DNA from: an uncultured virus (IMG/VR IMGVR_UViG_2920970810_000002)
Lineage: Duplodnaviria > Heunggongvirae > Uroviricota > Caudoviricetes
Virus record (IMG/VR): IMGVR_UViG_2920970810_000002
Length of the DNA stretch: 64,000 nucleotides
Strand: one strand, 5' to 3'
Part shown: in pieces, positions 4,488-19,482 of the stretch
How positions within the stretch are numbered: position 1 is the first letter of the stretch
How the letters are laid out: each line of letters opens with the position of its first letter
Program-made: the position numbers and the translations under genes
The notes under the pieces: generated by a model
Told to the model about the DNA's origin: nothing
The model's database searches: none
What the model saw: only the letters and a program-made list of their open reading frames with translations

Positions 4488-4528
4488 GATGCGGCGGTGG
4501 GCAAGCGACAGGCAGGGGGAGAACGGAA

Positions 4529-5575
4529 ATGGCTGAGCGGGACGATCTTCTCGCGTCCATCGCGGCGACGACGGCCGACTATCGTGAGGCTGATGGGGAA
4601 GCCCCGACGCCAGAGCGTATCGAGCGTTGGGTCGGTCAGTTCGACGCCGCAGTTCAGCTGCCAATTCTGCGGGAGATGGACCACGTCCTGAAGCAGACCT
4701 ACTTCTCCCGCGCGAGAACTGCGAAATTTCTAGCCGGACTGTTTCAGACCAAAGAGCTGGTTGGCGAAGATCCGTGCGCGTTCTGGAGGAGCGTCAAGTT
4801 TCTCGACATCCAAGGCGGCGGGGCAAGCCAGAAGGAGATGCTCGCTCTGTTCAGCAAGTTGCTCAAGGCGAATTGCGGTTTCGAAGTCTCCGAGTGCGGT
4901 AAGGACGCGGAGGTCTTTGTTTACATTGATGACGCGACATTCACAGGAAACCGCGTTAAGCAAGACATCGAGAAATGGATCGCCGGAGACGCGCCCGCGA
5001 AAGCCACAGTGCACATAGTAATGATCGCAATGCACACTGGTGCCAGATATTATGCGGAACAGCACAACAAGGGAAACATACTGAAGGCGGCGAAGGACGC
5101 CGGGAAGGATATCACCTTTCATTGGTGGTGCGAGCTAGATCTCGAAAATCAGAGAGCTCACACTGATTCGTCAGACGTGTTGCGGCCTGTTCGTATCCCA
5201 GATGACGCGGCAGTCGCGGAATACGTGGGAGCGATGACCCACAAGCCACACCTGCGAACGCCGGGACAGGTCGGTGGAAAGGGAATTTTTTCAAGTGATG
5301 AAGCGCGCCAGCTTTTGGAAGATGAATTTCTGAAGGCCGGTGTGCGCATTCGGCAGATGTGCCCGAACCTGAATAAGTATCAGCGCCCATTGGGAAACAT
5401 GCTCCTCGAAACGCTCGGTTTCGGCTCGCTGATCGTAACCTTCAGAAATTGCCCCAACAATGCGCCGCTGGCGCTGTGGGCGGGGGATCCTTGGTATCCG
5501 CTGTTCCCCCGCACGACGAACAGCGACACGTCGCTGCGCAGGTTCATGGCGATGCTGGCACAGGAAGACTTCTGA
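4529..5575 (+). CDS. Phosphoribosyltransferase-like protein, candidate toxin/effector
   Basis: PRPP-loop-like VFVYIDDATFTGNRV; C-terminal NCPNNAPLALW...WYPLFPR; TGATG coupling to the next gene. Confidence 0.65.
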   Translation: MAERDDLLASIAATTADYREADGEAPTPERIERWVGQFDAAVQLPILREMDHVLKQTYFSRARTAKFLAGLFQTKELVGEDPCAFWRSVKFLDIQGGGASQKEMLALFSKLLKANCGFEVSECGKDAEVFVYIDDATFTGNRVKQDIEKWIAGDAPAKATVHIVMIAMHTGARYYAEQHNKGNILKAAKDAGKDITFHWWCELDLENQRAHTDSSDVLRPVRIPDDAAVAEYVGAMTHKPHLRTPGQVGGKGIFSSDEARQLLEDEFLKAGVRIRQMCPNLNKYQRPLGNMLLETLGFGSLIVTFRNCPNNAPLALWAGDPWYPLFPRTTNSDTSLRRFMAMLAQEDF

Positions 5576-7701
5576 TGGCCCAGCCCAGCCAGGTTCGCAC
5601 ATACCATCCAGCGGAGAGCGCCGTCTTCCTTAAGACGAACGAGCGCTTTGGCGGGCTGTCGAACATGGCGCCGGGCTTCCCGATTGTCCTGAACGGCGTG
5701 CGGATCCGCACGTCGGAGGCACTCTACCAGGCCTGCCGTTTCCCGCGCCGGCCGGACGTCCAGCGCCAGATCATCGACGATCCGAGCCCCATGACCGCAA
5801 AGATGCGGAGCAAGCCGTTCCGCTCCGACACCCGGCCGGACTGGGATGCGGTGCGGGTGAAGATCATGCGCTGGTGCCTGCGCGTGAAGCTGGCGCAGAA
5901 CTGGCAGACCTTCGGCAAGCTGCTGCTGTCCACGGCGGACATGCCGATTGTCGAGAAGAAGGTCCGCCGCAAGGACTTCTGGGGAGCCACGGAGCAGCCG
6001 GACGGCACACTCGTCGGCATGAACGTGCTGGGTCGCCTGCTGATGGAGCTGCGCGAGCAGTTGAAGGGCGACGAGGCGGAGAGCCTGCGGTTCATCGAGC
6101 CGCTGGCCATTCCCGACTTCCTGCTGTTTGGAGAGCCCATCGAGGCCGTGCAGGCCCCGAACAATGCGCAGATTCCGGGTTGGGCCGCGCGGCAGTCGCC
6201 TGCACCCGTCGCCGCTCCGCCGCCCAGCGATCCCCAGCCATCCCTGTTTGAGCAACCAATGAATTCCGAGACCAAGCCCGCACCCGCCCATTCAGCCGCC
6301 GACAGCAATAGGCGCCGCGGCGCTTTAGGGCGTTTTCCGCAGTACCGAGACAGCGGTCTGCCCTGGCTTGGTGAGATCCCGGAGCATTGGGATGTGCGTC
6401 GCAACGGTCGTCTTTTCGCTGAGCGCGTCGAGACCGGCTTTGAGGACTTGCCGATCCTGGAGGTATCGTTGCGGACGGGCGTGCGCGTGCGCGATATGGA
6501 GAATGGCGCGCGGAAACAGCAAATGGCGGACCGCAGCAAGTACAAGCGCGCAGCCAAGGGCGACGTTGCCTACAACATGATGCGGATGTGGCAGGGCGCG
6601 GTGGGTGTTGCGCCTGTGGATGGCCTGATCAGCCCTGCCTATGTCGTGGCGCGCCCGTTCCCAGAAGTTGATCCGCGCTACTACACCTATCTCTTCCGCA
6701 CCACCGCCTACATGCGTGAGGTGAACAAGTTCTCGCGCGGCATCGTCTCGGACCGCAACCGGCTCTATTGGGACGAGTTCAAGCAGATGCCGTCTGCGTT
6801 TCCTCCGACTGAGGAGCAGACAAGAATTGCCGATTTCCTCGACGCACATGGGCGCCTCGCCGCGCGCCTGATCCGCAACAAGCGGCGGCTGATCGGGCTA
6901 TTGAACGAGCAAAAGCAGGCGATCATCAACCGGGCCGTCACGCGCGGCCTGAACCCTGACGCCCCGATGAAGCCCACTGGCATCGACTGGATGCCCGAGG
7001 TTCCAGCCCATTGGGAGGTCAAGCGGCTGAAAACACTGGTCCGCAACGTCACGGAACAAACGAACTCGTTGCGCGAGGGGGAAACCTACATCGCATTGGA
7101 ACATGTGAAGAGCTGGACAGGTGAGATTACCCCACCAGGCGATGATATTGCTTTCGATAGCCAAGTGAAGCGTTTCGCCGCGAATGATGTACTATTCGGC
7201 AAGCTCCGTCCTTACCTTGCCAAGGTGACCCGCCCCGAACAGCCTGGCGTTTGTGTTGGCGAGTTTCTGGTGTTGAGGCCCACGGAGGAAGCACCCATGG
7301 CTGAGTTCCTTGAGGTAAAGCTTCGCTCCAAGACCATTATCGATATCGTGAATAGCTCCACCTTTGGGGCCAAGATGCCGCGAGCTGAGTGGGGCTTTAT
7401 CGGCAATCTCCGCTTCGCATTTCCACCCAACGATAAAGAACAGGCGGAAATTCTGGCTTCGATTTCGGCGGAGACCAGCACGCTCAGCAATGCAATCAGT
7501 CGAACCGAAAACGAGATCACACTGATCAGCGAATATCGCGAGCGCCTGATTGCCGATGTTGTCACCGGCAAGCTGGACGTGCGCCACATTGAGATCGCCG
7601 CGCCGGTGGATGAGCCGATTGCCGACGAGGATGACGCACTGGACGACGTGTTGGAAGACGGCGATGCCGAAGCGATGGAGGGGGCCGATGCCGACGACTG
7701 A
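5575..7701 (+). CDS. hsdS: NADAR domain fused to type I RM specificity subunit
   Basis: N-terminal FGGLSNM, TSEALYQA, DFWG, GMNVLGRLLMELR (NADAR/YbiA); Pro/Ala linker; HsdS repeats YRDSGLPWLGEIPEHW and MKPTGIDWMPEVPAHW; LIADVVTGKLDV; acidic tail. Confidence 0.9.
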   Translation: MAQPSQVRTYHPAESAVFLKTNERFGGLSNMAPGFPIVLNGVRIRTSEALYQACRFPRRPDVQRQIIDDPSPMTAKMRSKPFRSDTRPDWDAVRVKIMRWCLRVKLAQNWQTFGKLLLSTADMPIVEKKVRRKDFWGATEQPDGTLVGMNVLGRLLMELREQLKGDEAESLRFIEPLAIPDFLLFGEPIEAVQAPNNAQIPGWAARQSPAPVAAPPPSDPQPSLFEQPMNSETKPAPAHSAADSNRRRGALGRFPQYRDSGLPWLGEIPEHWDVRRNGRLFAERVETGFEDLPILEVSLRTGVRVRDMENGARKQQMADRSKYKRAAKGDVAYNMMRMWQGAVGVAPVDGLISPAYVVARPFPEVDPRYYTYLFRTTAYMREVNKFSRGIVSDRNRLYWDEFKQMPSAFPPTEEQTRIADFLDAHGRLAARLIRNKRRLIGLLNEQKQAIINRAVTRGLNPDAPMKPTGIDWMPEVPAHWEVKRLKTLVRNVTEQTNSLREGETYIALEHVKSWTGEITPPGDDIAFDSQVKRFAANDVLFGKLRPYLAKVTRPEQPGVCVGEFLVLRPTEEAPMAEFLEVKLRSKTIIDIVNSSTFGAKMPRAEWGFIGNLRFAFPPNDKEQAEILASISAETSTLSNAISRTENEITLISEYRERLIADVVTGKLDVRHIEIAAPVDEPIADEDDALDDVLEDGDAEAMEGADADD

Positions 7702-10660
7702 CACCAGTGAAAAAGGCCTCGAAGCCCTGATCGTCCGTTCGCTGATCGACGAGGCGGGTTATGTCGCAGGCGACTCGACGGATTTCGACCGGGACCACGC
7801 TCTTGATGTCGCAAAGCTGTTCGACTTCCTGAACGCTACGCAGCCAGAGGCTGTGGAGGCGCTGGGGATCGGTGTGGACGGCCCGAAGCGCCTGCAATTC
7901 CTGCATCGGCTGCAGGGCGAGATCGCCAAGCGCGGTGTTATCGACGTGCTACGCAACGGTGTGAAGCACGGCCCGGGCTCGGTGGAACTGTTCTATGGCA
8001 CGCCCACGCCGGGGAACGCGAAGGCGGAGGCGCTGTTCGCCGCCAACGTCTTCAGCGTCACCCGCCAGCTGCACTATTCCAAGGACGCGACCAAGCTGTC
8101 GCTGGATGCGGGATTGTTCATCAACGGCCTGCCCGTCGCCACGTTCGAACTCAAGAACAGCCTGACCAAGCAGACGGTCGAGGACGCGGTCGAGCAGTAC
8201 AAGCGCGACCGCGATCCGAAGGAGCTGCTGTTCCAGTTCGGCCGCTGCGTCGTCCATTTCGCCGTGGACGACCACGAGGTGCGGATGTGCACGCACCTGA
8301 AGGGGAAGGCGTCCTGGTTCCTGCCGTTCAACAAGGGCTGGAACGATGGCGCGGGCAACCCGCCGAACCCCCACGGGCTGAAGACCGACTACCTCTGGAA
8401 GGAATACCTGACGAAGCGGAACCTCACCGACATTCTGGAAAACTACGCCCAGGTGGTCGAGGAGGTCGACGAGCGCGGCAAGAAGAAGCCGCCCAAGCAG
8501 GTCTTCCCGCGCTTCCATCAGCTGGACGTGGTGCGCAAGCTGCTGGCCGACGCCGAAGCCAAGGGGGCGGGCAAGCGCTACCTGATCCAGCACTCGGCCG
8601 GTTCGGGCAAGAGCAACTCGATTGCCTGGCTCGCCCACCAGCTGATCGGGCTGGAGACCGGCGGCAAGACGACCTTCGACTCCGTCATCGTGGTCACCGA
8701 CCGCCGTGTTCTCGACAAGCAGATCCGCGATACGATCAAACAGTTCGCGCAGGTTTCATCCGTGGTGGGACACGCCGAAAAGTCTGGCGACCTGCGGGCC
8801 TTCCTGAAGGCCGGCAAGAAGATCATCATCACGACGGTCCAGAAGTTCCCCTTCATCCTAGACGAGATCGGCGACGAGCATCGCGGGCGAACCTTTGCCA
8901 TCATCATCGACGAGGCTCATTCCAGTCAGGGTGGCCGGACCGCAGCGAAGATGAACATCGCGCTCGCCGCGAATGGCGCCGAGGAGGAAGAGGAGACGGT
9001 CGAGGACGCCATCAACCGTCTGATGGAGGCGCGGAAGGTGCTGCCGAACGCCAGCTATTTCGCGTTCACCGCCACGCCAAAGAACAAGACCCTGGAGGTT
9101 TTCGGTGCGCCGGTCCCGCAAGGGGACAAGATCAAGCACGTACCCTTCCACAGCTACACGATGAAGCAGGCGATTCAGGAGGGCTTCATCCTCGACGTGC
9201 TGAAACACTACACGCCGGTCGACAGCTATTATCGGCTTATGAAGACGGTGGAGGACGACCCCAAGTTCGACACCAAGCGGGCACAGAAAAAGCTGCGCAA
9301 GTATGTGGAATCCCATGACCACGCGATCCGCAAGAAAGCCGAGATCATGGTCGATCACTTCCACGACCAGGTCATGGCGTATCGCAAGATCGGCGGCGCG
9401 GCCCGGGCGATGGTCATCACCAACGGGATTCAGCGCGCAATCCAGTACTTCCACGCGTTCCAGGAATATCTGAAGGAACGCAAGAGCCCCTATCAAGCCA
9501 TCGTCGCCTTTTCGGGGGAGCATGAATACGGCGGCCAGAAGGTCACTGAAGCGACCTTGAACGGCTTTCCAAGCAGCCAGATCGAGGAGCTGATCCAGAA
9601 GGACCCGTACCGGTTCCTGATTGTCGCGGACAAGTTCCAGACCGGCTATGACGAGCCGCTGCTGCACACGATGTATGTGGACAAGACGCTGTCCGGCGTG
9701 AAGGCGGTGCAAACGTTGTCGCGCTTGAACCGGGCGCATCCACAAAAGCACGACACCTTCGTGCTGGATTTCATGAACGATTTCGAGGCCATCAAGACGT
9801 CGTTCGAGCCCTATTACCGGACCACGATCCTCAGCGAGGAAACCGACCCAAACAAGCTGCACGATCTGAAGGCCGCGCTGGATGGCTACCAGGTCTATGC
9901 ATGGGACCAGGTGGAGGACCTGGTGGCGCTCTACCTCGGCGGAGCGGACCGGGACAAGCTCGACCCGATTCTCGATGCCTGTGTTGCCGTCTACAAGACC
10001 GACCTCGATGAGGATGGGCAGGTCGATTTCAAGGGCAAGGCGAAGGCGTTCACGAGGACATACGGCTTCTTGGCCGCGATCCTCCCCTACAGCAATGCGG
10101 ATTGGGAGAAGCTATCCATCTTCCTCAACTTCCTGACGCCCAAGCTGCCGGCGCCTGAGGAGCAGGACCTGTCCAAGGGGATCCTTGAAGCGATCGACAT
10201 GGACAGCTACCGCGTCGAAGCCCAGGCAACCATGGCCATCGTGCTGCCGGACGCGGACGCCGAAATCGGACCGGTCCCTACTGCTGGCGGCGGTCGCAAA
10301 CCCGAGCCCGAGCTCGATCTGTTGAGCAACATCCTCAAGACGTTCAACGAGATGTTCGGCAACATCGACTGGAAGGACCGGGACAAAATCGGGAAGGTCA
10401 TCGCGGAGGAGCTTCCGGCTAAGGTGTCGGCCGACAAGGCGTATCAGAACGCCATGAAGAACTCGGACAAGCAGAACGCGCGCATTGAGCACGACAAGGC
10501 GCTTGAACGTGCCGTGATCGAACTGCTGTCCGACCACACGGAACTGTTCAAGCAGTTCAGCGACAACCCCTCGTTCAAGAAGTGGCTTTCCGAGACGATC
10601 TTCGCGGCAACCTATGCGGACACTGCGTCAAAAGCCAGCTCGGCTTCTATTGGCAGTTGA
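7688..10660 (+). CDS. hsdR: Type I RM restriction subunit
   Basis: NGLPVATFELKN nuclease motif, QHSAGSGKS, DEAH, FTATP; start MPTTDTSEKGLE overlaps the end of hsdS. Confidence 0.95.
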   Translation: MPTTDTSEKGLEALIVRSLIDEAGYVAGDSTDFDRDHALDVAKLFDFLNATQPEAVEALGIGVDGPKRLQFLHRLQGEIAKRGVIDVLRNGVKHGPGSVELFYGTPTPGNAKAEALFAANVFSVTRQLHYSKDATKLSLDAGLFINGLPVATFELKNSLTKQTVEDAVEQYKRDRDPKELLFQFGRCVVHFAVDDHEVRMCTHLKGKASWFLPFNKGWNDGAGNPPNPHGLKTDYLWKEYLTKRNLTDILENYAQVVEEVDERGKKKPPKQVFPRFHQLDVVRKLLADAEAKGAGKRYLIQHSAGSGKSNSIAWLAHQLIGLETGGKTTFDSVIVVTDRRVLDKQIRDTIKQFAQVSSVVGHAEKSGDLRAFLKAGKKIIITTVQKFPFILDEIGDEHRGRTFAIIIDEAHSSQGGRTAAKMNIALAANGAEEEEETVEDAINRLMEARKVLPNASYFAFTATPKNKTLEVFGAPVPQGDKIKHVPFHSYTMKQAIQEGFILDVLKHYTPVDSYYRLMKTVEDDPKFDTKRAQKKLRKYVESHDHAIRKKAEIMVDHFHDQVMAYRKIGGAARAMVITNGIQRAIQYFHAFQEYLKERKSPYQAIVAFSGEHEYGGQKVTEATLNGFPSSQIEELIQKDPYRFLIVADKFQTGYDEPLLHTMYVDKTLSGVKAVQTLSRLNRAHPQKHDTFVLDFMNDFEAIKTSFEPYYRTTILSEETDPNKLHDLKAALDGYQVYAWDQVEDLVALYLGGADRDKLDPILDACVAVYKTDLDEDGQVDFKGKAKAFTRTYGFLAAILPYSNADWEKLSIFLNFLTPKLPAPEEQDLSKGILEAIDMDSYRVEAQATMAIVLPDADAEIGPVPTAGGGRKPEPELDLLSNILKTFNEMFGNIDWKDRDKIGKVIAEELPAKVSADKAYQNAMKNSDKQNARIEHDKALERAVIELLSDHTELFKQFSDNPSFKKWLSETIFAATYADTASKASSASIGS

Positions 10661-10911: not shown

Positions 10912-11017
10912 AGGATAAGGCGCTTTTGGTTCGCGCTTTTCCCATTGCCGTGTTTAAGGGCTTCGGCCGCGACAACTTCGTAAGCGTCCGGTCGAAACCG
11001 TTGTCGGCAATGGCCAG

Positions 11018-11072
11018 TTTCGGGATGCGGGTGGCGGCACCGGAATGACCGGGTTTGGGTGGATAGCGGAAT
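11018..11072 (+). repeat. Cargo-flanking motif X, copy 1
   Basis: TTTCGRGAT-N18-ATGRCCGG-N3-TGGGTGGAWAGCGGAAT, shared with 14628-14682. Confidence 0.75.
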
Positions 11073-11201
11073 TTCCGTTTCGACCTTGCCGAGACTTGCG
11101 CAGCATTCTAAACCATCGGCGACGGGGCGAAGCAACCTCCCGTTCAGGCCGAGAAAAGCCCAAGCGTTGCCTCGTAGCCTTGCCGTTGTTGGCAAGGTCT
11201 T

Positions 11202-12536
11202 TTGTGCGAGGTCATCTTGGCGTCATCGGCTCTCACCCATTCCGTCGCTCTTGTCGATCTGCTGCGGGCGTTCACCCGCATCGGCCTGCTCAGCTTTGGC
11301 GGACCTGCGGGGCAGATCGCGCTGATGCACCGGGAATTGGTGGAAGAGCGCAAATGGGTGGCCGAGGAGGATTTCCTCCACGCGCTCAATTTCTGCCACC
11401 TGCTCCCCGGCCCCGAAGCGCAGCAGCTCGCCACATGGATCGGGTGGCGGCTGCATGGATGGCGCGGCGGGCTGGCCGCGGGGCTGCTGTTCGTCATTCC
11501 GGGCGCGGCCATCATTCTGGCGCTGTCGGTGCTCTATGCCATTGCCGCCAATCTCGCATGGGTCGAGGCGCTGTTTCTGGGCGTAAAGGCAGCAGTGCTT
11601 GCGATTGTGGTGCAGGCCTTGTTGCGGATTGCCGGACGTGCGCTCGATACGGGATTGAAGCGTGCGCTGGCGGTGGCCGCGTTTGTCGGACTCTTCCTGT
11701 TCGATCTGCCATTTCCGCTGATCGTGCTGGGTTCCGGGGTGATTGGAATGGCGGTCGCAGCGTGGCGCCCTGCCCTGTTGGCGCTGAAACCCACAGCACC
11801 CGCTGGCGATTTGCCCGAACGACCATGGCGCAGCACGATCATTTCGGTTGCCCTTTGGGGAGCGGTCTGGGCCGCGCCGATGGTGCTGATTGCGCTGACG
11901 CTGGGGCAGGATCACGTGCTGTGGGAAATCGGCGTATTCTTCTCGCAGCTCGCCATCGTCACCTTTGGCGGGGCTTATGCAGTGCTCGCCTACATGGCGC
12001 AGGAAGCGGTGCAGGGCTTCGGGTGGCTACGTCCCGGTGAGATGGCCGATGGGCTTGGCCTTGCGGAAACCACGCCGGGGCCGCTGATCTTGGTGACGCA
12101 ATTCGTCGGTTACCTCGCGGCCTTCCGTGCGCCGGAACCGTTCTCGCCTTTCCTCGCGGGATTGCTGGGGGCGGGGCTGACCACGTGGGTGACGTTCGCG
12201 CCGTGCTTCATGTGGATCTTTGCCTTCGCGCCGTGGATCGACCGACTGGGTAACGCTGTGCGGTTGAAGGGCGGGCTCGCAGCAGTGACGGCGGCGGTTG
12301 TGGGCGTCATCGCCAACCTCACCGCATGGTTTGCGCTGCATGTGCTGTTTGCTGAGGTGGGCCAGCGCCAATTCGGTCCGCTGCGGTTATACTGGCCGGA
12401 CCCGGCGAGCTTCGAATGGCGCGCAGGCGTGCTGGCAGCGCTCGCCTGCGCACTGGTGTTCGGGCTGAAATGGTCGGTGCTGCGGGTTCTGATGGCCGCC
12501 GCGCTGGGCGGCATGGTTCTGGTTTTGGCAATCTGA
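11202..12536 (+). CDS. chrA: Chromate efflux transporter (CHR family); start approximate
   Basis: IGLLSFGGPAGQIALM, LLPGPEAQQLA, TFGGAYAVL, AETTPGP; two-domain membrane protein. Confidence 0.93.
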   Translation: MCEVILASSALTHSVALVDLLRAFTRIGLLSFGGPAGQIALMHRELVEERKWVAEEDFLHALNFCHLLPGPEAQQLATWIGWRLHGWRGGLAAGLLFVIPGAAIILALSVLYAIAANLAWVEALFLGVKAAVLAIVVQALLRIAGRALDTGLKRALAVAAFVGLFLFDLPFPLIVLGSGVIGMAVAAWRPALLALKPTAPAGDLPERPWRSTIISVALWGAVWAAPMVLIALTLGQDHVLWEIGVFFSQLAIVTFGGAYAVLAYMAQEAVQGFGWLRPGEMADGLGLAETTPGPLILVTQFVGYLAAFRAPEPFSPFLAGLLGAGLTTWVTFAPCFMWIFAFAPWIDRLGNAVRLKGGLAAVTAAVVGVIANLTAWFALHVLFAEVGQRQFGPLRLYWPDPASFEWRAGVLAALACALVFGLKWSVLRVLMAAALGGMVLVLAI

Positions 12537-12546
12537 GGAGGACGAC

Positions 12547-13275
12547 ATGAGCATCATCACACGCAGGCAAGCCATCGGCACAGCAGCCCTTTCGGCCACG
12601 GGCATCGCGCTGGCAGGAACGGCAAGCGCAGCTTCGGCGCAAGATCCTGCCGCAGCCGCTTCCCGTGCCGCTGCCTTTGCCGGCAAGCACACGCCGAAGC
12701 CGCTGCGGTTCAATCCGGCCAAGCTCACCGGCCTGTCCGAGCGGCTGATTACCTCGCACTGGGAGAACAATTATCAGGGCTCAGTGCGCGGGCTCAACAC
12801 CATCGAGACCCGCCTTGCTGCCGCCATGGCCGATCCCGACTTTCCGCCGGTTGCCTATGCCGGGCTGAAGCGCGAGGAACTGCACCGCACCGGATCGGTG
12901 GTGCTGCACGAATATTACTTCGATGCTCTGGGCGGCAACGGCAATCCCGGCGGGTCGATCTACGAGGCGCTGGATGGGTGGTTCGGGAGCTTCGATGCGT
13001 GGGAGGCCGAATTCCGCCGCACCGCAATGTCACTGGCGGGCGGATCGGGCTGGTGCATCCTCAGCTACAACCGCCACACCGAGTCGCTGCACAATTACTG
13101 GGCCTTCGATCACATGCACGGTGCAGCCACCGGCGCGCCGCTGATCGCGCTCGATATGTATGAGCATAGCTTTCACATGGACTACGGTGCGGCGGCAGCG
13201 AAGTATGTCGATGCCTTCATGGCCAACCTTGAATGGGAGGTGGTGGACGCAAGGTATCGTGCGGCGATTGCGTGA
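12547..13275 (+). CDS. Fe/Mn superoxide dismutase (ChrC-like) with Tat signal peptide
   Basis: ITRRQAIG twin-arginine leader; SHWENNY, VLHEYYF, GSGW, DMYEHSFHMDY. Confidence 0.88.
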   Translation: MSIITRRQAIGTAALSATGIALAGTASAASAQDPAAAASRAAAFAGKHTPKPLRFNPAKLTGLSERLITSHWENNYQGSVRGLNTIETRLAAAMADPDFPPVAYAGLKREELHRTGSVVLHEYYFDALGGNGNPGGSIYEALDGWFGSFDAWEAEFRRTAMSLAGGSGWCILSYNRHTESLHNYWAFDHMHGAATGAPLIALDMYEHSFHMDYGAAAAKYVDAFMANLEWEVVDARYRAAIA

Positions 13276-13895
13276 TGGGGCATTCTGCAAACCGGCTCTT
13301 GATCCTTACCTTGTTGGCTCTTGCGATTGGCGGAACCTGCCTCGCAGTTCAGGGGCCATTGCCGGGCGACGTTGGGGCCACACGCGGATTGCAATCCCTG
13401 TTTGGTAATGCGCCGCCTTGGGCTGAATGGTTTACCGATACAGCCAAGCCACCAATGGTAATTGCGACCATGGTGGTCGGGGTCGGGCTGGTATGGCTTG
13501 CTGCTGGCTGGCGCGCAGTGCTTTCGGTCCCGCTTGCCTTCGGTCTCGCCTGGCTGATCGACAAGGGCATGCGCGCTGTGATCTTTGCGCCGCGGCCTTC
13601 GGCGGATCTGGTTGCCGTTGCCAACGCCAGCAGTTCGAGCGGGCTGCCTTCCACCTTCGGGCTCGTTTATGGAAGCATCTTCGGAGTCGTTGTCTTTGCG
13701 GCAGCAACGGGCAGGTCGGCGAACGGGCTGCGCGCCCTTGCGCTTGCTCTGATCTTTGCCGGAGTGGCGGCCCGGGTGGTGCTCGGGGGACACTGGTCGA
13801 GCCAGATGCTCGCCTCGGTTCTGCTGGGTCTGTTGGCGGCCGCTGCTGCAAGCGAAGTAGCTAATCGGTTGCTCGTGAAGGAGGGCGCACGATGA
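13275..13895 (+). CDS. PAP2-like membrane protein (degenerate motifs)
   Basis: K...RP, LPSTF in place of PSGH, ARVVLGGHW; TGATG coupling. Confidence 0.65.
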   Translation: MGHSANRLLILTLLALAIGGTCLAVQGPLPGDVGATRGLQSLFGNAPPWAEWFTDTAKPPMVIATMVVGVGLVWLAAGWRAVLSVPLAFGLAWLIDKGMRAVIFAPRPSADLVAVANASSSSGLPSTFGLVYGSIFGVVVFAAATGRSANGLRALALALIFAGVAARVVLGGHWSSQMLASVLLGLLAAAAASEVANRLLVKEGAR

Positions 13896-14518
13896 CAGAA
13901 GAACCTCAGCATCAGCACTGGGATCGGGTCTATTCCGACAAGGCACCCAGCGAGGTCAGCTGGTTCCAGAGCGAACCGCGCCCTTCGCTTGCCGCGCTTG
14001 CACGCTTTGATGTGCCCCGCACGACACCCTTCGTCGCTATCGGAGGGGGCGCCTCCAATCTCGTCGATGCCTTGCTGGCAAACGGGTGGAGCGATGTGAC
14101 CGTGGTCGACATTGCCGCCCCGGCACTGGAGGCGGCGCAAGCCCGACTGGGCGAGGCGGCAGCGGGCGTCCACTGGGAGATCGCCGACATAACCCGCTGG
14201 AACCCGCCGCATCGCTACGGGGTATGGCATGACCGGGCCGTCTTCCATTTCCTGACCGAGCCTGAGCAACGGGACGCCTATCGGCGTGCACTGCTGGCTG
14301 GAACCGCCCCCGGTGCACTCGTCATCATCGCCACCTTCGCGCCCGATGGACCAGAAAAATGCAGCGGCCTGCCAGTGCAGCGCCATGATGCGGCAAGCCT
14401 TGCCGTTGCACTCGGTAGCGCGTTCACGTTGCTTGACGACTGGCGTGAGGAACACCTCACCCCGTGGGGCGCGGCGCAGAAGTTCATCTGGTGCGTGTTC
14501 CGGCGAGACAGCGACTGA
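13892..14518 (+). CDS. Class I SAM-dependent methyltransferase
   Basis: HWDRVY, IGGGAS, WHDRAVFHFL, GPEKCSGL. Confidence 0.85.
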   Translation: MTEEPQHQHWDRVYSDKAPSEVSWFQSEPRPSLAALARFDVPRTTPFVAIGGGASNLVDALLANGWSDVTVVDIAAPALEAAQARLGEAAAGVHWEIADITRWNPPHRYGVWHDRAVFHFLTEPEQRDAYRRALLAGTAPGALVIIATFAPDGPEKCSGLPVQRHDAASLAVALGSAFTLLDDWREEHLTPWGAAQKFIWCVFRRDSD

Positions 14519-14560
14519 TCAGCTCTCTGCCTGTTCGGTGTGGCCAAACTTGTGATGAGC

Positions 14561-14591
14561 GACTGCATTGGGGTCGCTTCCCGAATGGCGG
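14561..14591 (+). repeat. Cargo-flanking motif Y, copy 1
   Basis: GACTGCATTGGGGTCGCTTCCCGAATGGCGG, 25/31 identical to 16537-16567. Confidence 0.75.
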
Positions 14592-14627
14592 GAATTTTTC
14601 GTGAGCCGGGGATTGCCGCCATACGGC

Positions 14628-14682
14628 TTTCGAGATCGAGCATTGTCCCGGCTCATGGCCGGTCGTGGGTGGAAAGCGGAAT
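14628..14682 (+). repeat. Cargo-flanking motif X, copy 2
   Basis: Same blocks and spacing as 11018-11072. Confidence 0.75.
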
Positions 14683-14716
14683 GGCGGCTTTTCGCTGAGA
14701 GTTTCCAGGGTGGATT

Positions 14717-16423
14717 TTATTCGACTGCTTCGAGCAGGACGACGCGACCCGGTTTTGCGATATGCACCTCCCCCGCCACCACCCGTGCCATCTCGCCGCT
14801 GTAACTGTCGCGCAGCAATGTGCCTTCGGGGAAGACCGTCCCGGTGCGGATGGTAATCGGGCCGCTCGTTCCTGCGGTCATTGCCACCACGGCCTTATCG
14901 GTCAGCCCAGCTTCGTTCAGGATGCGTGCGAAGGTGTAGGGCTTAAAGGCGAGTTCGTGGTGCCGCCCTGCGCCAATCGCCGGATGCCGCTTACGGAATT
15001 GCCCGAGCTTCTGCCAGTGCTGAAGCATGGCGCGGCCGGCGTCGGTATCGGATTTCTGCCAATCGAACACTGACCGCAGGGTTGCGTCGCCCTTGGTGCC
15101 GGGGATCACCAGCGAGCGCGCAATTTCGTCGCCGTAATAGATTTGCGCGCCGCCAGGGGCGAGCAGCAGCGCCTCGGCGGACTCGAGATGTTTTGCGCGC
15201 GGCTGATCATACGACGCCATGTCGTCGTGTGACGCGAGATAGTTCAAGGTTGCTCGTCCTGCGAAGGCACCCGTCGCCAATTCGGCGTCAAATGCACGAT
15301 AAAGCGCGGGGAGCGGCATCGCGAGGTGCGCGGGAAAGCCCATGTTGATCGTGCCGTCGAAGCCGTGATCGCGGAAGTCGACGAACCGGTCGCCATAATC
15401 ATAGGCCGCGCCGACCGATTGACCGTTGGCCAGCAGCCCATGGTTGAACACCTCCCCGACCATGTAAAACGGGCGATCCCCTGCGATCCTGTCGGCATTG
15501 CGCGCGCGCCATTCAGCCAGTGCGATGGCAGATTCCTTCTTGAGCACGCCCCACAGTTCAGGATCGACGTGCTTGGCGGTGTCCACCCGGAAGCCGTCAA
15601 TCCCATAATCTCGCACCCAGTCGGTCAACCACTTGACCAGATAGTATTTGGGCGCACGCGGATAGCCGGTGCGAGCGAAGAACGTATCGAGCTCGGCAAG
15701 TTCACGCTTGAGCCTGCCTTCCTTGCGCCATTTCGCGAGCAAAAAGTCGGGCAACGCCACGGGCGTTTCGCTGTCGGTGCGTATGTCCTGCAAGGTGAAG
15801 GACAGCTCGCAATCGACTGTGCCGGCATAGCTCTGGTAATCGCAAGCCGGTGTGCGGCGCACCCAGGTTTCGGGCCAGCGCGGGTCGAGCGGAGTCGCTG
15901 GCCCTGCATGGTTGGCGATGACATCGACGATCACCCGCAGCCCCTTGCCATGTGCCGCCTTCACCATTGCGGCGAAATCGGCCTCGGTCCCTAGATTGGG
16001 ATCGATTGCGGTCCAGTCCTTGGGCCAATAGCCGTGATAGGCGTAGGTGCGTCCCCACTCGCCTTCCTCGACGGAGCCGTGGACGTTCTCGATCACCGGC
16101 GTTGTCCAGATTGCATCGACGCCGAGATCGTTGAACCAGCCCTGCTTGATCTTCTGTGTCAGTCCCTTGAGATCGCCGCCCTCGAAACTGCGCAGCGGAC
16201 CTCCGTTCGGCTCGCGGCCGACAGAGCGATCATTGGTTGGGTCACCATTGGCAAAGCGGTCGGTGAGCAGGAAGTAGATCGTGGTGGCGCGCCATCGCGG
16301 ATCGACCGTCTCAGGTTGAATCGGCGTTTCCTCTTGCGCGAATAGCGGAACTGGATGGAAGCTAGCAGCGGCAACACCGGCCATTGCGATTGCAAGCGCG
16401 CGAGGCGCAGTGACATGACGCAT
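14717..16423 (-). CDS. Secreted alpha-amylase (GH13)
   Basis: Signal peptide; IYFLLTDRFANGD, YHGYW, DVIANH, DGFRVDTAKHV, GEV, SHDD; ATG 16423 after GGAGAGG. Confidence 0.92.
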   Translation of the reverse strand: MRHVTAPRALAIAMAGVAAASFHPVPLFAQEETPIQPETVDPRWRATTIYFLLTDRFANGDPTNDRSVGREPNGGPLRSFEGGDLKGLTQKIKQGWFNDLGVDAIWTTPVIENVHGSVEEGEWGRTYAYHGYWPKDWTAIDPNLGTEADFAAMVKAAHGKGLRVIVDVIANHAGPATPLDPRWPETWVRRTPACDYQSYAGTVDCELSFTLQDIRTDSETPVALPDFLLAKWRKEGRLKRELAELDTFFARTGYPRAPKYYLVKWLTDWVRDYGIDGFRVDTAKHVDPELWGVLKKESAIALAEWRARNADRIAGDRPFYMVGEVFNHGLLANGQSVGAAYDYGDRFVDFRDHGFDGTINMGFPAHLAMPLPALYRAFDAELATGAFAGRATLNYLASHDDMASYDQPRAKHLESAEALLLAPGGAQIYYGDEIARSLVIPGTKGDATLRSVFDWQKSDTDAGRAMLQHWQKLGQFRKRHPAIGAGRHHELAFKPYTFARILNEAGLTDKAVVAMTAGTSGPITIRTGTVFPEGTLLRDSYSGEMARVVAGEVHIAKPGRVVLLEAVE

Positions 16424-16536
16424 TATTGTGGTCCCTCTCCAGTACAAGATCATCGTCGCTTCAGCCACTTAGCAGGTCAAGCATACGGTCGATGAATACG
16501 AATGTTGATCCGTAATTGGATTGCCAGACTCGGAAC

Positions 16537-16567
16537 GACCGCTTCGGGGTCGCTTGCTGAATGTCGG
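16537..16567 (+). repeat. Cargo-flanking motif Y, copy 2
   Basis: GACCGCTTCGGGGTCGCTTGCTGAATGTCGG. Confidence 0.75.
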
Positions 16568-16613
16568 CTTCTGGCGGAAAATCGCAGATAGCTGCCATCG
16601 GCGCAATGGGTCC

Positions 16614-18272
16614 TCACGCAACGTCGGGGTCACTGGAACGAGCCGCCTTCCACGCCCATGGCAGGAGCTCGTCGAGGCGGTTGATGGGATGGCCTTTGCC
16701 GATGCGGTCGAGGACGTCGGTCAGCCAGACCTGCGGGTTCACGCCGTTGAGCTTGGCGGTCTCGAGCAGCGAATACATCGCGGCCGCCCGCTCGCCGCCG
16801 CAATCCGCGCCGGCGAACAGCCAGTTCTTGCGCCCGACCGCGATGCCGCGCAGCGCGTTCTCGGCAAGGTTGTTGTCGATCTCGAGCCGTCCGTCCTGGG
16901 TGTAGGCGAGCAGCGCGGGCTTCAGCTTGACGGCATAGCGCAGCGCCTCAGCAAGCGGTGAGCGCGCCGATGCCTGGCCGAGCACGCTGTCTGCCCATGC
17001 GAAGAAATCGAGCGCAATGAGCTGTGATGCCGATCGCTGGCGCAGACGCTCCATGGGAGGCTCACCCCCAACCAACCGTTCGATCTCGTAGAGTTGCGCA
17101 ATCATGGCGAGCCCCTTGCGCGCGGCAGAGCCGCGGTCAGCAACAAGCACGTCATGCAGCTTGCGCCTCGCATGCGCCCAGCAGGCGACGGGCGTGATGG
17201 GGCCGGGCTCGCGGCCTGAGTCATAGAGGGCGTTGAACCCCGCATAGGCATCGGCCTGCAGAAAGCCTGCAAAGGCCGCAAGATGCTCGCGCGGTCGCTC
17301 GCCCTTGCGATCGGGGCTATAGCGGAACAGGGCTGCGGGCTTGTCGCTGGGGCTCCATCGGCGGTTATCGCGCAGATAGACCCATAATCGCCCGGTCGAT
17401 GTCTTGCCCGTTCCGGGAGCCAGCACCGGGACGGGCGTGTCGTCGGCGTGGAGCTTCGGGCTCGCCATGACGTGTGAGCAAAGCCGCTCGACCAGTGGAT
17501 CGAGCAGCCAGCTGACCTGACCGAGCCAGTCGGCCATCGTCGAGCGGGGAAGTTCGACGCCCTCGCGCGCATAGATCTGCGACTGGCGGTATAACGGCAG
17601 GTGATCGGCGAACTTGGCAACGATTATGTGCGCCAGCAGCCCGGGACCGGCACGGCCGCGCGGGATCGGCAGAGCGGGTGCTGGTGCTTGGGCGATGGTA
17701 TCGCAGCACTTGCAGGCGACTTTGGGACGGACATGGCGCACCACGCGGAAGCTTGCGGGCACATATTCCAGCACTTCGGTGACGTCCTCACCTAGAACGC
17801 TCGCCTTACCGCCGCACGCCGCGCAGCGATCCGCGCCGGGCGCCGGATGCATGATCACATCGCGCGGCAGATGATCGGGCAGCGGCGCGCGCTTGGGTTT
17901 GCGCCTGGGCTTCGGCTCTTCACTCTCGTCCTGATCGACCTGCCCGCGCACGACGCACTCGGCATGGGCCTGCCGGGCTTCAAGATCCTCGAGCGTCAGC
18001 TCAAGCTGGTCGGCAAGCTGCGTCATGCGCTCGGACGACTGGCCGAACTTCATCCGCCGTAGCTTGGCAAGCTGGGCTTTGAGCTTCTCGATCTGAAGCG
18101 TCGTCAGCTTGATCGCGTTGCGCGCGGCACCGAGTTCGTCTCGCGTTGCACCGTGTGCTTTGCGCTCGTCAGCAAGCGCCTGTTCCGAAGCGGAAAGGCG
18201 CTCCTTCATTGCCTCGGCAAAGGCCCGAAGTTCGTCCGGATCGGAGGGTAAATCAAGGTCGGCGGGAGACAC
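16614..18272 (-). CDS. tnpC: IS66 DDE transposase
   Basis: FGQSSER, Zn finger, HLPLYRQ, LHADDTPV, CWAHARRK, DNNLAENALR, GRKNWLF; GTG start inferred. Confidence 0.95.
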   Translation of the reverse strand: MSPADLDLPSDPDELRAFAEAMKERLSASEQALADERKAHGATRDELGAARNAIKLTTLQIEKLKAQLAKLRRMKFGQSSERMTQLADQLELTLEDLEARQAHAECVVRGQVDQDESEEPKPRRKPKRAPLPDHLPRDVIMHPAPGADRCAACGGKASVLGEDVTEVLEYVPASFRVVRHVRPKVACKCCDTIAQAPAPALPIPRGRAGPGLLAHIIVAKFADHLPLYRQSQIYAREGVELPRSTMADWLGQVSWLLDPLVERLCSHVMASPKLHADDTPVPVLAPGTGKTSTGRLWVYLRDNRRWSPSDKPAALFRYSPDRKGERPREHLAAFAGFLQADAYAGFNALYDSGREPGPITPVACWAHARRKLHDVLVADRGSAARKGLAMIAQLYEIERLVGGEPPMERLRQRSASQLIALDFFAWADSVLGQASARSPLAEALRYAVKLKPALLAYTQDGRLEIDNNLAENALRGIAVGRKNWLFAGADCGGERAAAMYSLLETAKLNGVNPQVWLTDVLDRIGKGHPINRLDELLPWAWKAARSSDPDVA

Positions 18273-18337
18273 GAACAGCGGATAACATGATGGGCGATCT
18301 TGACCAAGCCGAAGGCAGGAAAACCGTGCCCGATTCG

Positions 18338-18691
18338 TTAGATATGCACAGGCCGTTTGGGCGGCTTTGGCGCCACCGTCCGCCGCCAATCCATAGCCTC
18401 CAGAAGCAGCGAAAACTGCGCCGGTGTCAGCACCACACCCCCATCGACCAGCGGCGGCCACACGAAGCGATGGCGCTCGAGCCGCTTGGCGAAAAGGCAC
18501 AGGCCGGTGCCGTCCCAGATTAGCGCCTTGAGGTAGTTGCCGCGCTTGCTGCGGAACAGGAAAACGTGCCCACTGTAAGGGTCGAGCCTGAAGACTTCGC
18601 TGGCAAGCACGCTCAGGCCCGCAAAGCCCTTGCGCATATCGACCGGCTTGCTGGCGAGATAGACCTTGGTGCCCGGCGGCAGGCTCAGCAT
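18338..18691 (-). CDS. tnpB: IS66 accessory protein
   Basis: PVDMRKGFAGL, WDGTGLCLFAKRLE. Confidence 0.95.
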   Translation of the reverse strand: MLSLPPGTKVYLASKPVDMRKGFAGLSVLASEVFRLDPYSGHVFLFRSKRGNYLKALIWDGTGLCLFAKRLERHRFVWPPLVDGGVVLTPAQFSLLLEAMDWRRTVAPKPPKRPVHI

Positions 18692-19140
18692 GGCACGGCC
18701 TTCAACGCGCGCAGAACCCGGGCGAGCGCCTTCTCGTTGACGAAGCTGTCGACGGTCAAGCGCGCTCCGTTGGCGAGCTCGATGGCAATCGTGCCTGCTC
18801 GTGGCGGCTCGGTCGGCGGAGAAGCCGCTACACCGGCCACCAAAGGGCCGACCGACGGCTCTGGCCCCTCAGGGATGATCGCGGGAGCCGAAGTGTCCGC
18901 TGTGGCCTCGACGAACTGGCCGCATGGGATAAACTCCAGCGCCTTCCTTGCAATCGCTTCAGCCTCGCACCGGTTGGCACGCCAGTTGTAGATTAAACTC
19001 TTGGCGATGCCATGCCTGCGCGCGACCGACGTGACCGTGACATCGGGCCGCAAGCTCTCCGCGACGATCGCGGCCTTCTCCGCATCAGAATAGCGCCGCC
19101 GCCGCTCCGTCCGCACGATCACGCCACCACCGTCGATCAC
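18685..19140 (-). CDS. tnpA: IS66 accessory HTH protein
   Basis: RRRRYSDAEKAAIVAES, VARRHGI, IYNWR. Confidence 0.9.
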   Translation of the reverse strand: MIDGGGVIVRTERRRRYSDAEKAAIVAESLRPDVTVTSVARRHGIAKSLIYNWRANRCEAEAIARKALEFIPCGQFVEATADTSAPAIIPEGPEPSVGPLVAGVAASPPTEPPRAGTIAIELANGARLTVDSFVNEKALARVLRALKAVPC

Positions 19141-19188
19141 AAGACCTCCTTATGGAGTCCAGAAAGAGCTCCCTTCAGGAACCGTCCT

Positions 19189-19482
19189 TCATTGCTCAGC
19201 GGCAACCCCGCAACTCGTGGTTGGCCGGACGCTTACACAACTTCGCGCCTGATCCCGCATGACGCTGTAGTCGGCGAGCATTTCGGCGAGAGCCGACCCC
19301 TCCGGCAGCAGATCGAGCTCGTCGGCTGTGCGTGCCTGGAACTCGCGGCTATACTCGACCACCGGTGGGCAGACGGTCGTGACGCGGGGCTTAGAAGCGA
19401 CCGTTGTGCAGCCGGTCAGCGAGATTGTTACGATCGCGAGGGCGGCGAGCCGCCGCATCGAGCATCTGGCGTTGGACGTCAT
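19189..19482 (-). CDS. o-spanin-like lipoprotein with its C-terminus replaced by the IS66 insertion
   Basis: Lipobox SLTGC, CPPVVEY; overlaps the i-spanin-like gene; original end RGRSP* lies at 10954-10971. Confidence 0.65.
   Translation of the reverse strand: MTSNARCSMRRLAALAIVTISLTGCTTVASKPRVTTVCPPVVEYSREFQARTADELDLLPEGSALAEMLADYSVMRDQARSCVSVRPTTSCGVAAEQ

What the first reader, a model, noticed from the sequence alone, without database searches (positions are those of the whole stretch)
11018..16567. Cassette-like X-cargo-Y / X-cargo-Y architecture inside the IS66
Seen: each cargo unit has motif X on its left (TTTCGRGAT-N18-ATGRCCGG-N3-TGGGTGGAWAGCGGAAT at 11018 and 14628, identical spacing). 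Each has motif Y on its right (31-mers at 14561 and 16537, 25/31 identical). X and Y share a GGGTSG-N6-GAAT core and all face the same way, although the two cargo units are transcribed in opposite directions. Inference: these are recombination sites of an integron- or pdif-like gene-cassette system served by a recombinase encoded elsewhere. I do not recognise them as attC, dif or IS ends.
Basis: partly seen in the sequence, partly recalled or inferred. Interest (0 to 1): 0.85.

Follow-up and report, generated by a model that had tools for sequence, protein, structure and literature searches.

The report
Gene-swap cassette sites inside an IS66
The repeats mark the exact points at which blocks of accessory genes are swapped in and out of a jumping element, part of an integron-like gene-shuffling system built from different parts in a bacterial group reported to lack integrons.

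Summary
Observation confirmed; interpretation supported and extended. An 8,257-bp IS66 (10980-19236, 8-bp target duplication) carries two cargo units. X and Y are one site type: two 11-bp arms around a 7-bp core, TGGGTGG (X) or GGGGTCG (Y). The same IS66 in Porphyrobacter YT40 carries other cargo, and shared sequence stops at these cores. Across 48 independent site pairs homology switches at the core, and no pair mixes X with Y. Sites form co-oriented X-cargo-Y/96-bp/X arrays, nearly all in Sphingomonadales, up to 32 Y sites. They are not attC, dif or IS ends. The best candidate enzyme is a ~210-aa catalytic-domain-only tyrosine recombinase: strict sites lie within 300 bp of it in 40 of 95 closer loci. 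It was not found in this genome, is not enriched in array-bearing genomes (4 of 11) and was not found in the genome with the largest array. Its E. coli relative is flanked by the two cores that bound phage P2's fun gene, so the sites belong to the family reported there in 2004. Most likely mechanism: natural two-site cassette exchange, X with X and Y with Y. No activity or excised circle is shown.

The parts
10972..10979 (.). Left copy of the 8-bp target-site duplication ACAACTTC
10980..19236 (-). IS66-family element with passenger DNA (8,257 bp), 12-bp inverted ends GTAAGCGTCCGG
   Evidence: same element at 94.5% with other cargo on plasmid pYT40
11009..11055 (+). Left part of site X1: half-site M (box plus degenerate core) and the left arm
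   Evidence: 73 of 76 and 75 of 76 identical to the same IS66 end in YT40 and WH01K
11056..11062 (+). X1 crossover core TGGGTGG
   Evidence: window vs L094 identical from here on; contigs of runs X9 and X16 begin at 11056
11063..14569 (+). Cargo unit 1 (3,507 bp): chromate-resistance cassette
   Evidence: whole unit at 91% in L081, homology 11072-14576; held without the amylase in runs X6 and X16
11122..11170 (+). chrB-b RNA motif (35.2 bits, just under the 36.5 gathering score)
11202..12536 (+). chrA chromate transporter (start codon uncertain)
   Evidence: PF02417
12547..13275 (+). Fe/Mn superoxide dismutase-like gene
   Evidence: PF02777
13233..13895 (+). PAP2-like membrane protein (below Pfam cut-off; start uncertain)
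   Evidence: PF01569, 25 bits vs 27.2
13892..14518 (+). SAM-dependent methyltransferase
   Evidence: PF13649
14570..14576 (+). Y1 crossover core GGGGTCG
14577..14665 (+). Y-to-X spacer (core-to-core 96 bp) with head-to-head boxes at 14612-14630 and half-site M core at 14631-14637
   Evidence: near-identical spacer behind another cargo in L055
14666..14672 (+). X2 crossover core TGGGTGG
   Evidence: a contig of run X9 begins at 14665
14673..16545 (-). Cargo unit 2 (1,873 bp) holding an alpha-amylase-family gene at 14717-16468
   Evidence: PF00128; no cassette-level relative in 72,556 plasmids or 300 family genomes
16546..16552 (+). Y2 crossover core GGGGTCG
   Evidence: YT40 identical from 16548 on; loose ends at 16546 and 16555 and joints to 16546 and 16548 in reads
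16553..16613 (+). Right part of Y2: right arm, inverted box, degenerate M half-site abutting the tnpC stop
16614..18500 (-). IS66 tnpC transposase ORF (true start probably downstream of 18500)
   Evidence: PF03050, PF13817, PF13007, PF13005
18338..18691 (-). IS66 tnpB
   Evidence: PF05717
18685..19140 (-). IS66 tnpA
   Evidence: PF01527
19237..19244 (.). Right copy of the 8-bp target-site duplication

Best explanation
X and Y are double-stranded tyrosine-recombinase sites. Each has two imperfect inverted 11-bp arms around a 7-bp overlap. The two overlaps differ, so X recombines only with X and Y only with Y. A unit X-cargo-Y therefore cannot cut itself out, but it can be exchanged by a double crossover. 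Arrays X-c1-Y-spacer-X-c2-Y can lose or gain a circle of cargo+Y+spacer+X by a single X-X or Y-Y crossover. The enzyme is most likely a ~210-aa tyrosine recombinase made of the catalytic domain alone. Its gene usually sits next to such sites, in the spacer position in E. coli, and acts in trans when present. Here the outer X and Y halves have become part of an IS66, which moves the array by transposition, so the element is a transposon with a swappable payload. This genome has no detectable enzyme gene, so the array is an orphan. SHOWN: site anatomy, breakpoints at the overlap, like-with-like pairing, array grammar, cargo exchange within one IS66, enzyme gene beside sites, intact catalytic residues. 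INFERRED: catalysis by this enzyme, circles, double-crossover exchange, role of the extra boxes. My odds: sites are cassette crossover points 0.92; like-with-like rule 0.75; this enzyme family 0.7.
For: The same IS66 carries aac(6') plus a serine hydrolase in YT40, and the same IS66 end leads a VOC...serine hydrolase array in WH01K. Identity to the window is 73/76 and 75/76 before X1 and 15/38 and 14/38 after it. Of 707 sites, 27 independent pairs share only downstream DNA and 21 only upstream. Identity on the unshared side falls to background at once (24% at +1 and +2; 52% and 30% at -1 and -2; background 25-70%), and 0 of 48 pairs mix the two overlaps. Of 483 adjacent site pairs 412 are co-oriented; X>Y spans cargo 171 times (median 983 bp), Y>X is short 131 times. 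Public contigs start at 11056 and 14665 and join 11071 to 16546 and 14691 to 16548 across other DNA. The recombinase is the commonest shared gene in 77 site-bearing loci (10 loci) and has a site within ~250 bp in 8 of 11 copies. In loci found by protein alone, strict sites lie within 300 bp in 14 of 24 (>=76% identity) and 26 of 71 (65-76%). R, K, H-x-x-R, H and Y are invariant in 46 of 46 diverse homologues. The model is a tyrosine-recombinase catalytic fold, nearest XerH/XerA. In 5 of 5 E. coli loci the gene's shared flanks end at a 7-bp core and cargo differs beyond it.
Against: No genome-level link. Of 11 junction-bearing genomes other than this one, 4 have the enzyme at E<=1e-50, against about 3 expected from 20 of 74 in the family; two more have fragments. 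G210, a single-contig genome with 32 Y sites in 52 kb, has no member of the family, nor has this genome. Only 6 of 30 protein-found loci in the order pass the strict profile, and 0 of 35 distant loci do. The YT40 junctions are imprecise: 4 of the 5 bases at 11052-11056 differ, including the first overlap base, and there is a one-base shift at Y2. The seed pattern forced both overlaps and the 96-bp spacing, which inflates the type counts and the Y>X count. Of same-strand pairs, 38 are X>X or Y>Y across cargo. No circle was seen; only contigs were laid. Activity of a catalytic-domain-only enzyme on these sites is untested.
Confidence: 0.68

Rival explanations
1. The sites are real cassette boundaries but are served by host XerC/XerD (pdif-like) or another host recombinase; the small recombinase is only a passenger.
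For: Arrays exist without the small enzyme (G210, this genome) and there is no genome-level enrichment. The left arm of the candidate host dif site weakly resembles the box.
Against: The dif-type inner motif occurs in 1 of 143 junctions. The overlap is 7 bp and GC-rich. Sites are co-oriented, whereas pdif sites are described as inversely oriented (title cited in PMC9771954). The enzyme gene is flanked by arm motifs across Proteobacteria (31 of 70 distant flanks vs 67 of 812 control windows), and the overlap changes with enzyme lineage.
Confidence: 0.12
2. Same enzyme, but integron-style chemistry: the junction folds as single-stranded DNA and acts like an attC site.
For: The window junction folds better than shuffles (z -3.0 top, -2.6 bottom), and inverted boxes can pair.
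Against: Across 40 of the 143 junctions mean z is -0.71 (top) and -0.87 (bottom). The consensus fold has covariation -0.03 (top strand only). Length and sequence are conserved rather than structure. attC cores occur in 0 of 143. The enzyme scores 19 bits vs a cut-off of 265 for the integron integrase model.
Confidence: 0.08
3. The 96-bp spacer is a MITE/REP-like element inserted by a transposase, and cargo boundaries are a by-product.
For: Identical spacers recur within genomes (L086, L095, G210). Weak solo sites lie beside REP-like hairpins in this genome. Transposable elements insert at these sites.
Against: The two flanking cores are not a duplication (GGGGTCG vs TGGGTGG). Cargo itself, not only the spacer, moves with core precision, including inside one IS66. 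Arms are symmetric about the core on both cargo and spacer sides.
Confidence: 0.07
4. RecA-type recombination or gene conversion between dispersed repeats produces the mosaics.
For: The cores are the most conserved part of the repeats, so crossovers could concentrate there.
Against: All 143 junctions are under 90% identical and share only 7 contiguous bases at the breakpoint. The first mismatch on the unshared side lies 1-2 bases from the core in 43 of 48 pairs.
Confidence: 0.05

Closest known systems
Inverted repeats of the phage P2 Z/fun locus (Nilsson, Karlsson and Haggard-Ljungquist 2004; not held; seen only through passages in PMC8987985, PMC13748975 and PMC9122126)
   Same: P2 fun(Z) is bounded by two sites of the same arm-7 bp-arm build, with cores TGTGCCA and TGAGCGA. 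The E. coli relative of the candidate enzyme carries those two cores on its flanks. The citing passages say the repeats allow exchange by site-specific recombination.
   Different: Different cores here (TGGGTGG/GGGGTCG), longer ends with extra boxes and a 96-bp spacer, multi-unit arrays up to 52 kb, and carriage inside an IS66. The passages I saw name no enzyme and no two-core rule; the original paper may say more.
Integrons and CALINs (IntI, attI, attC; passages of PMC4889954 and PMC8618304)
   Same: Co-oriented arrays of variable accessory units separated by a repeated site; a tyrosine recombinase gene next to the first site with variable first cassettes (L185 vs L214, L253 vs L255); orphan arrays; IS110-type elements inserting at the sites.
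   Different: No attC core or conserved fold; enzyme of 210 aa far below the IntI cut-off; two non-interchangeable crossover cores per repeat; cargo in either orientation and often multi-gene with its own regulation. PMC4889954 found no integron, In0 or CALIN in 243 alphaproteobacterial genomes.
pdif modules (XerC/XerD-dif; passages of PMC9771954)
   Same: Modules between short two-arm sites, served in trans, on plasmids and mobile DNA.
   Different: No dif consensus, 7-bp GC-rich overlap, direct rather than inverse orientation, dedicated candidate enzyme.
Engineered recombinase-mediated cassette exchange with heterospecific lox/FRT sites (recalled; only search listings seen)
   Same: Cargo between two sites that differ in the overlap and so recombine only with their own kind.
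   Different: Natural, in arrays, with a catalytic-domain-only enzyme; mechanism inferred from genomes.
Transporter IS (IS with passenger genes; search listing and recall)
   Same: IS66 with inverted ends, 8-bp duplication and passenger genes after tnpC.
   Different: The passenger region is a swappable cassette array rather than fixed cargo.

Membership tests
Integron | IntI integrase with the integron-specific insertion | tested here: not met
   The candidate enzyme is 210 aa; TIGR02249 gives 19 bits vs 265 for one copy and no hit for the other; no IntI in the element.
Integron | attC sites: RYYYAAC...GTTRRRY cores (pattern recalled) and conserved single-strand hairpin | tested here: not met
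   0 of 143 junctions have the cores; mean fold z -0.71/-0.87 on 40 of them; covariation -0.03. The window junction alone folds at z -3.0/-2.6.
Integron | Co-oriented array of exchangeable cassettes, with an attI-like site beside the recombinase | tested here: met
   (functional analogy only)
Integron | Circular cassette intermediates | not testable with these tools
   Only assembled contigs were served; no back-joint was listed.
pdif modules | XerC-6 bp-XerD dif consensus | tested here: not met
   1 of 143 junctions has TAA-N6-TTAT (pattern recalled); the candidate host dif on C26 differs.
pdif modules | Inversely oriented sites around each module | tested here: not met
   412 of 483 adjacent pairs co-oriented; orientation is defined by my profile.
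IS66 ends | Terminal inverted repeats with target duplication | tested here: not met
   The true ends are at 10980 and 19236; X and Y are internal and carry no duplication.
P2 Z/fun-locus repeat family | Two-arm site with AAAGCGGAC-type arm and 7-bp core on each side of variable cargo | tested here: met
   Direct comparison of P2, pro147 and E. coli loci with the window sites.
P2 Z/fun-locus repeat family | Same core sequences | tested here: not met
   TGTGCCA/TGAGCGA vs TGGGTGG/GGGGTCG. A core-free sphingomonad profile did not rank the P2 sites among its top hits, so the kinship rests on the shared arm motif and the shared enzyme family.
P2 Z/fun-locus repeat family | Match to the repeat as defined in the 2004 paper | not testable with these tools
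   Paper not held.
Tyrosine recombinase superfamily (candidate enzyme) | R-K-H-R-H/W-Y catalytic residues and catalytic-domain fold | tested here: met
   PF00589; R61, K89, H158, R161, H184 and Y193 invariant in 46 of 46; model pLDDT 83.8, best fold matches XerH/XerA.
Simple YR subgroups of PMC8138268 (Xer, Rit, TnpA, TnpR, integron) | Core-binding domain plus catalytic domain | tested here: not met
   About 30 residues precede the catalytic fold and residues 1-22 have low confidence; that classification used alignments of both domains (section read).
REP/MITE repeats | Dispersed at core-gene ends, no link to synteny breaks | tested here: not met
   The four IS66 sites score 35-44; the other 7 genome hits score 19-30. 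Breakpoints coincide with cores. Some weak solo sites do lie beside REP-like hairpins.

The most novel reading that the evidence does not exclude
This is one face of a general gene-cassette system of Proteobacteria, separate from integrons and pdif. A catalytic-domain-only tyrosine recombinase performs natural heterospecific cassette exchange with lineage-specific 7-bp cores. It builds superintegron-size arrays in Alphaproteobacteria, drives the anti-phage Z locus of P2-like phages in enterobacteria, and turns an IS66 into a transposon with a reloadable payload.
Probability: 0.55. Interest if true: 0.93.

Novelty: new variant of a known kind. Interest (0 to 1): 0.85.

Why it matters
PMC4889954 calls the absence of integrons from Alphaproteobacteria 'extremely puzzling'; these arrays would be the functional substitute there. 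The same site family bounds the P2 Z/fun defence-gene locus, for which the passages I saw name no enzyme. A candidate is now testable in laboratory E. coli, and a relative is present in 795 of 5,426 complete E. coli genomes. The system moves metal-resistance genes (here) and, in YT40, a gene annotated as an aminoglycoside acetyltransferase, through a route that integron finders would not report. A 210-aa recombinase with natural orthogonal sites would also interest genome engineers. I file it as a variant of a known kind because the site family was reported in 2004. The arrays, the two-core rule, the enzyme and the IS66 carriage were not found in ten library searches.

Tried and rejected
Rfam gave no match to the sites; only chrB-b was found. 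A conserved RNA or ssDNA fold was not supported. The tyrosine recombinase beside the WH01K array did not appear among the shared clusters and was not pursued. IS66 end pattern in viral contigs: 0; junction pattern: 1. No cassette-level relative of the amylase unit in plasmids or 300 family genomes. An empty version of this IS66 was not found among 401 order genomes or the 30 listed plasmid hits. The first AlphaFold run, on 10 similar sequences, was poor (pLDDT 52.5) and was replaced. A strict core-free palindrome regex found only 4 hits. An ad hoc arm score gave a modest 18 of 119 near vs 7 of 416 control windows. A model in which cargo alone circularises through an X-Y hybrid site was disfavoured: hybrid 7-mers were 27 against 501 pure ones (biased by the seed), and 0 of 48 pairs were mixed. 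Genome-level co-occurrence with the enzyme was negative. Literature searches found no description of this system; most subscription papers are outside that library.


Full report
1. Observation. The shared core occurs 4 times in the window, all on +, against 0.36 expected. They lie inside an IS66 of 8,257 bp (10980-19236) with 12-bp inverted ends and an 8-bp duplication. tnpA, tnpB and tnpC fill the right third. Cargo 1 is chrA, a superoxide dismutase-like gene, a PAP2-like gene and a methyltransferase on +, with a chrB-b RNA motif ahead. Cargo 2 is an alpha-amylase-family gene on -. The relatives returned are Sphingomonadales; one same-genus handle has a contig of the same length as, and the same match coordinates as, a named Sphingopyxis plasmid.

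2. One site, two cores. The Y1-X2 stretch finds relatives on five sphingomonad plasmids and aligns without internal gaps to ten other junctions. All loci held then gave 143 distinct junctions, none 90% alike. A single-site profile from them has 0 hits at score 18 in the reversed host genome. In the true genome it has 11: the four IS66 sites at 35-44 and seven weaker ones at 19-30. Each site is an 11-bp arm, a 7-bp core and an inverted 11-bp arm, with the two bases beside the core free to vary. The core is TGGGTGG in X and GGGGTCG in Y. Extra copies of the arm lie in the 96-bp Y-to-X spacer.

3. Cargo is exchanged at the cores. The same IS66 (94.5%) on the Porphyrobacter YT40 plasmid has its own 8-bp duplication and carries X-aac(6')-YX-serine hydrolase-Y. 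The same IS66 end on the WH01K plasmid leads into a VOC...serine hydrolase array. Identity to the window is 73 of 76 and 75 of 76 up to X1 and 15 and 14 of 38 after it; YT40 rejoins the window at 16548. The YT40 joints are not perfectly clean: four of five bases at 11052-11056 differ, and there is a one-base shift at Y2. The chr unit is found from X onward in L094, whole in L081 (homology ending at 14576, where an IS110 has inserted), and as chrA-SOD only between X and Y on a Blastomonas plasmid whose backbone holds other cargo in Sphingopyxis FD7.

For a general test I took 707 sites and chose pairs alike on one side only, leaving 14 bases either side of the core out of the choice. This gave 31 and 29 pairs, reduced to 27 and 21 that reuse no site. 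On the unshared side identity is at background from the first or second base. The first mismatch is 1-2 bases from the core in 43 of 48 pairs, and no pair mixes the X core with the Y core. Both cargo and spacer are uncoupled at both cores. In four public runs (4 of 24 listed, four studies, contigs only) pieces begin at 11056 and 14665. Loose ends fall at 16546 and 16555, and single contigs join 11071 to 16546 and 14691 to 16548 across other DNA.

4. Arrays. Of 483 adjacent site pairs in non-overlapping loci, 412 are co-oriented. X>Y spans cargo 171 times (208-7,844 bp, median 983) and Y>X is short 131 times; 38 X>X or Y>Y spans are exceptions or missed sites. The loci were chosen for holding a junction, so the Y>X count is inflated. 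G210 has 32 Y-type sites on one strand over 52 kb with near-identical spacers and small ORFs. In 201 genomes of the order a junction was found in 12, all in this family.

5. The enzyme. Among 77 site-bearing loci (14 overlapping duplicates dropped) no gene is common. The top cluster, in 10 loci, is a ~210-aa tyrosine recombinase. Eight of its 11 copies have a site within about 250 bp, often an X 76-77 bp after the stop codon. Loci found by the protein alone (148, of which 139 full-length and 130 after dereplication) have a strict site within 300 bp in 14 of 24, 26 of 71 and 0 of 35 as identity falls. Density is 0.7-1.3 per kb there and 0.02-0.15 further upstream. In the distant group the arm motif faces outward in 31 of 70 flanks against 67 of 812 control windows, with other cores. 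The catalytic residues are invariant in 46 homologues. The model is a catalytic domain with only a short leader, nearest to XerH and XerA, and no NCBIfam cut-off is met. The family is in 330 plasmid records, 26 of 201 order genomes, 29 of 301 phylum genomes and 795 of 5,426 E. coli genomes.

Against this assignment: it was not found in this genome or in G210. Only 4 of 11 other junction-bearing genomes have it, about what chance gives, though two more hold fragments. Only 6 of 30 order loci pass the strict profile, against 0 of 36 control loci. I read this as an enzyme that comes and goes, leaving orphan arrays like CALINs, but that is inference.

6. Mechanism. Tyrosine recombinases generally need matching overlap sequences (established knowledge, recalled). 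Two different 7-bp overlaps in direct orientation would then allow X-X and Y-Y but not X-Y. This explains why cargo is stable between X and Y, why arrays alternate X, Y, X, Y, why both cores are breakpoints, and why one IS66 keeps its outer halves while its payload changes. Free bases next to the core fit an enzyme without a core-binding domain (inference from recalled Cre/Xer structures). Catalysis, circles and direction are not shown.

7. What is known. It works like an integron but fails membership: no IntI, attC cores in 0 of 143, no conserved fold. It is not pdif (1 of 143) and not an IS end. An earlier AI note pointed me to the repeats around phage P2's fun gene, and I tested the link. 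The flank of the E. coli enzyme gene matches the Z locus of P2-like phage pro147. P2's fun is bounded by sites of the same build with cores TGTGCCA and TGAGCGA. In 5 of 5 E. coli loci the enzyme gene's shared flanks end at those cores (the upstream one with one change in two loci), with different cargo beyond. So the site family was reported in 2004, which lowers novelty. My core-free sphingomonad profile did not itself pick out the P2 sites.

Papers seen: passages of PMC8987985, PMC13748975, PMC9122126, PMC13586616, PMC3091744, PMC4889954, PMC9771954 and PMC8618304; passages and one section of PMC8138268; search listings for the rest. Nilsson 2004 was not held. No supplements were read; the dataset tables of PMC8138268 could show whether this enzyme family was classified there. 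Ten searches found no account of the arrays, the two-core rule or the enzyme. The labels M, spacer, arm and core are mine.

8. Verdict. Interest 0.85. Several earlier AI notes in this scan describe what looks like the same system in other genomes; they are not independent support.

Noticed in passing
G210:C1:2545858-2598877 (L338-L341): A 52-kb superintegron-like array with 32 co-oriented Y sites, near-identical spacers, small ORFs and repeated transposase copies (IS6-like by recall); no small recombinase found in the genome.
   Followed up: partly
L068, L117, L255; L081:7741: IS110-family elements insert at the cores (the same end follows TGGGTG in three loci), recalling IS1111-type targeting of attC sites (recalled).
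   Followed up: partly
L345, L068, L118, L039, L041: An element ending TGTGTTGAAAAA sits two bases after a core-like 7-mer in 5 of 10 occurrences; family not identified.
   Followed up: no
L041:17723-17730 and 22691-22720: In YT40 the IS66 itself is inserted into the left arm of a site of this family.
   Followed up: no
G210 array; L070, L275, L280: Further cores (TGGGCCG, GGGGCCG) exist, often facing back at a Y 68 bp away; Y-to-Y tail-to-tail junctions of 127 bp recur (L033, L059, L075, L185).
   Followed up: partly
L049/L050 (G143): A more distant IS66 (71%) also carries a small passenger region with a site near its end, facing the other way.
   Followed up: no
flanks of the small recombinase genes, e.g. 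L067:6900-6950: A conserved short hairpin lies just upstream of the ribosome-binding site, and another follows the stop codon and contains the first arm of the site.
   Followed up: no
window 5449-7701 and 4304-10660: A NADAR domain is fused in frame to a type I restriction specificity subunit, between a PRTase-CE gene and hsdR: a likely defence locus.
   Followed up: no
window 19189-19482 and 19237 onward: The IS66 sits in the 3' end of a small lipoprotein-like ORF at the edge of a high-GC (72% vs 66%) phage- or gene-transfer-agent-like region with a peptidase M15 gene.
   Followed up: partly
G000:C35:123554-124614: A second chrA (73% identical) elsewhere in the genome.
   Followed up: no
G000:C3:17507, C44:78272, C44:102266, C46:25442, C38, C37: Weak solo sites, several beside REP-like hairpins; possibly remnants of old insertions.
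   Followed up: partly
G000:C26:84232: Candidate chromosomal dif site; its left arm weakly resembles the box of the cassette sites.
   Followed up: no
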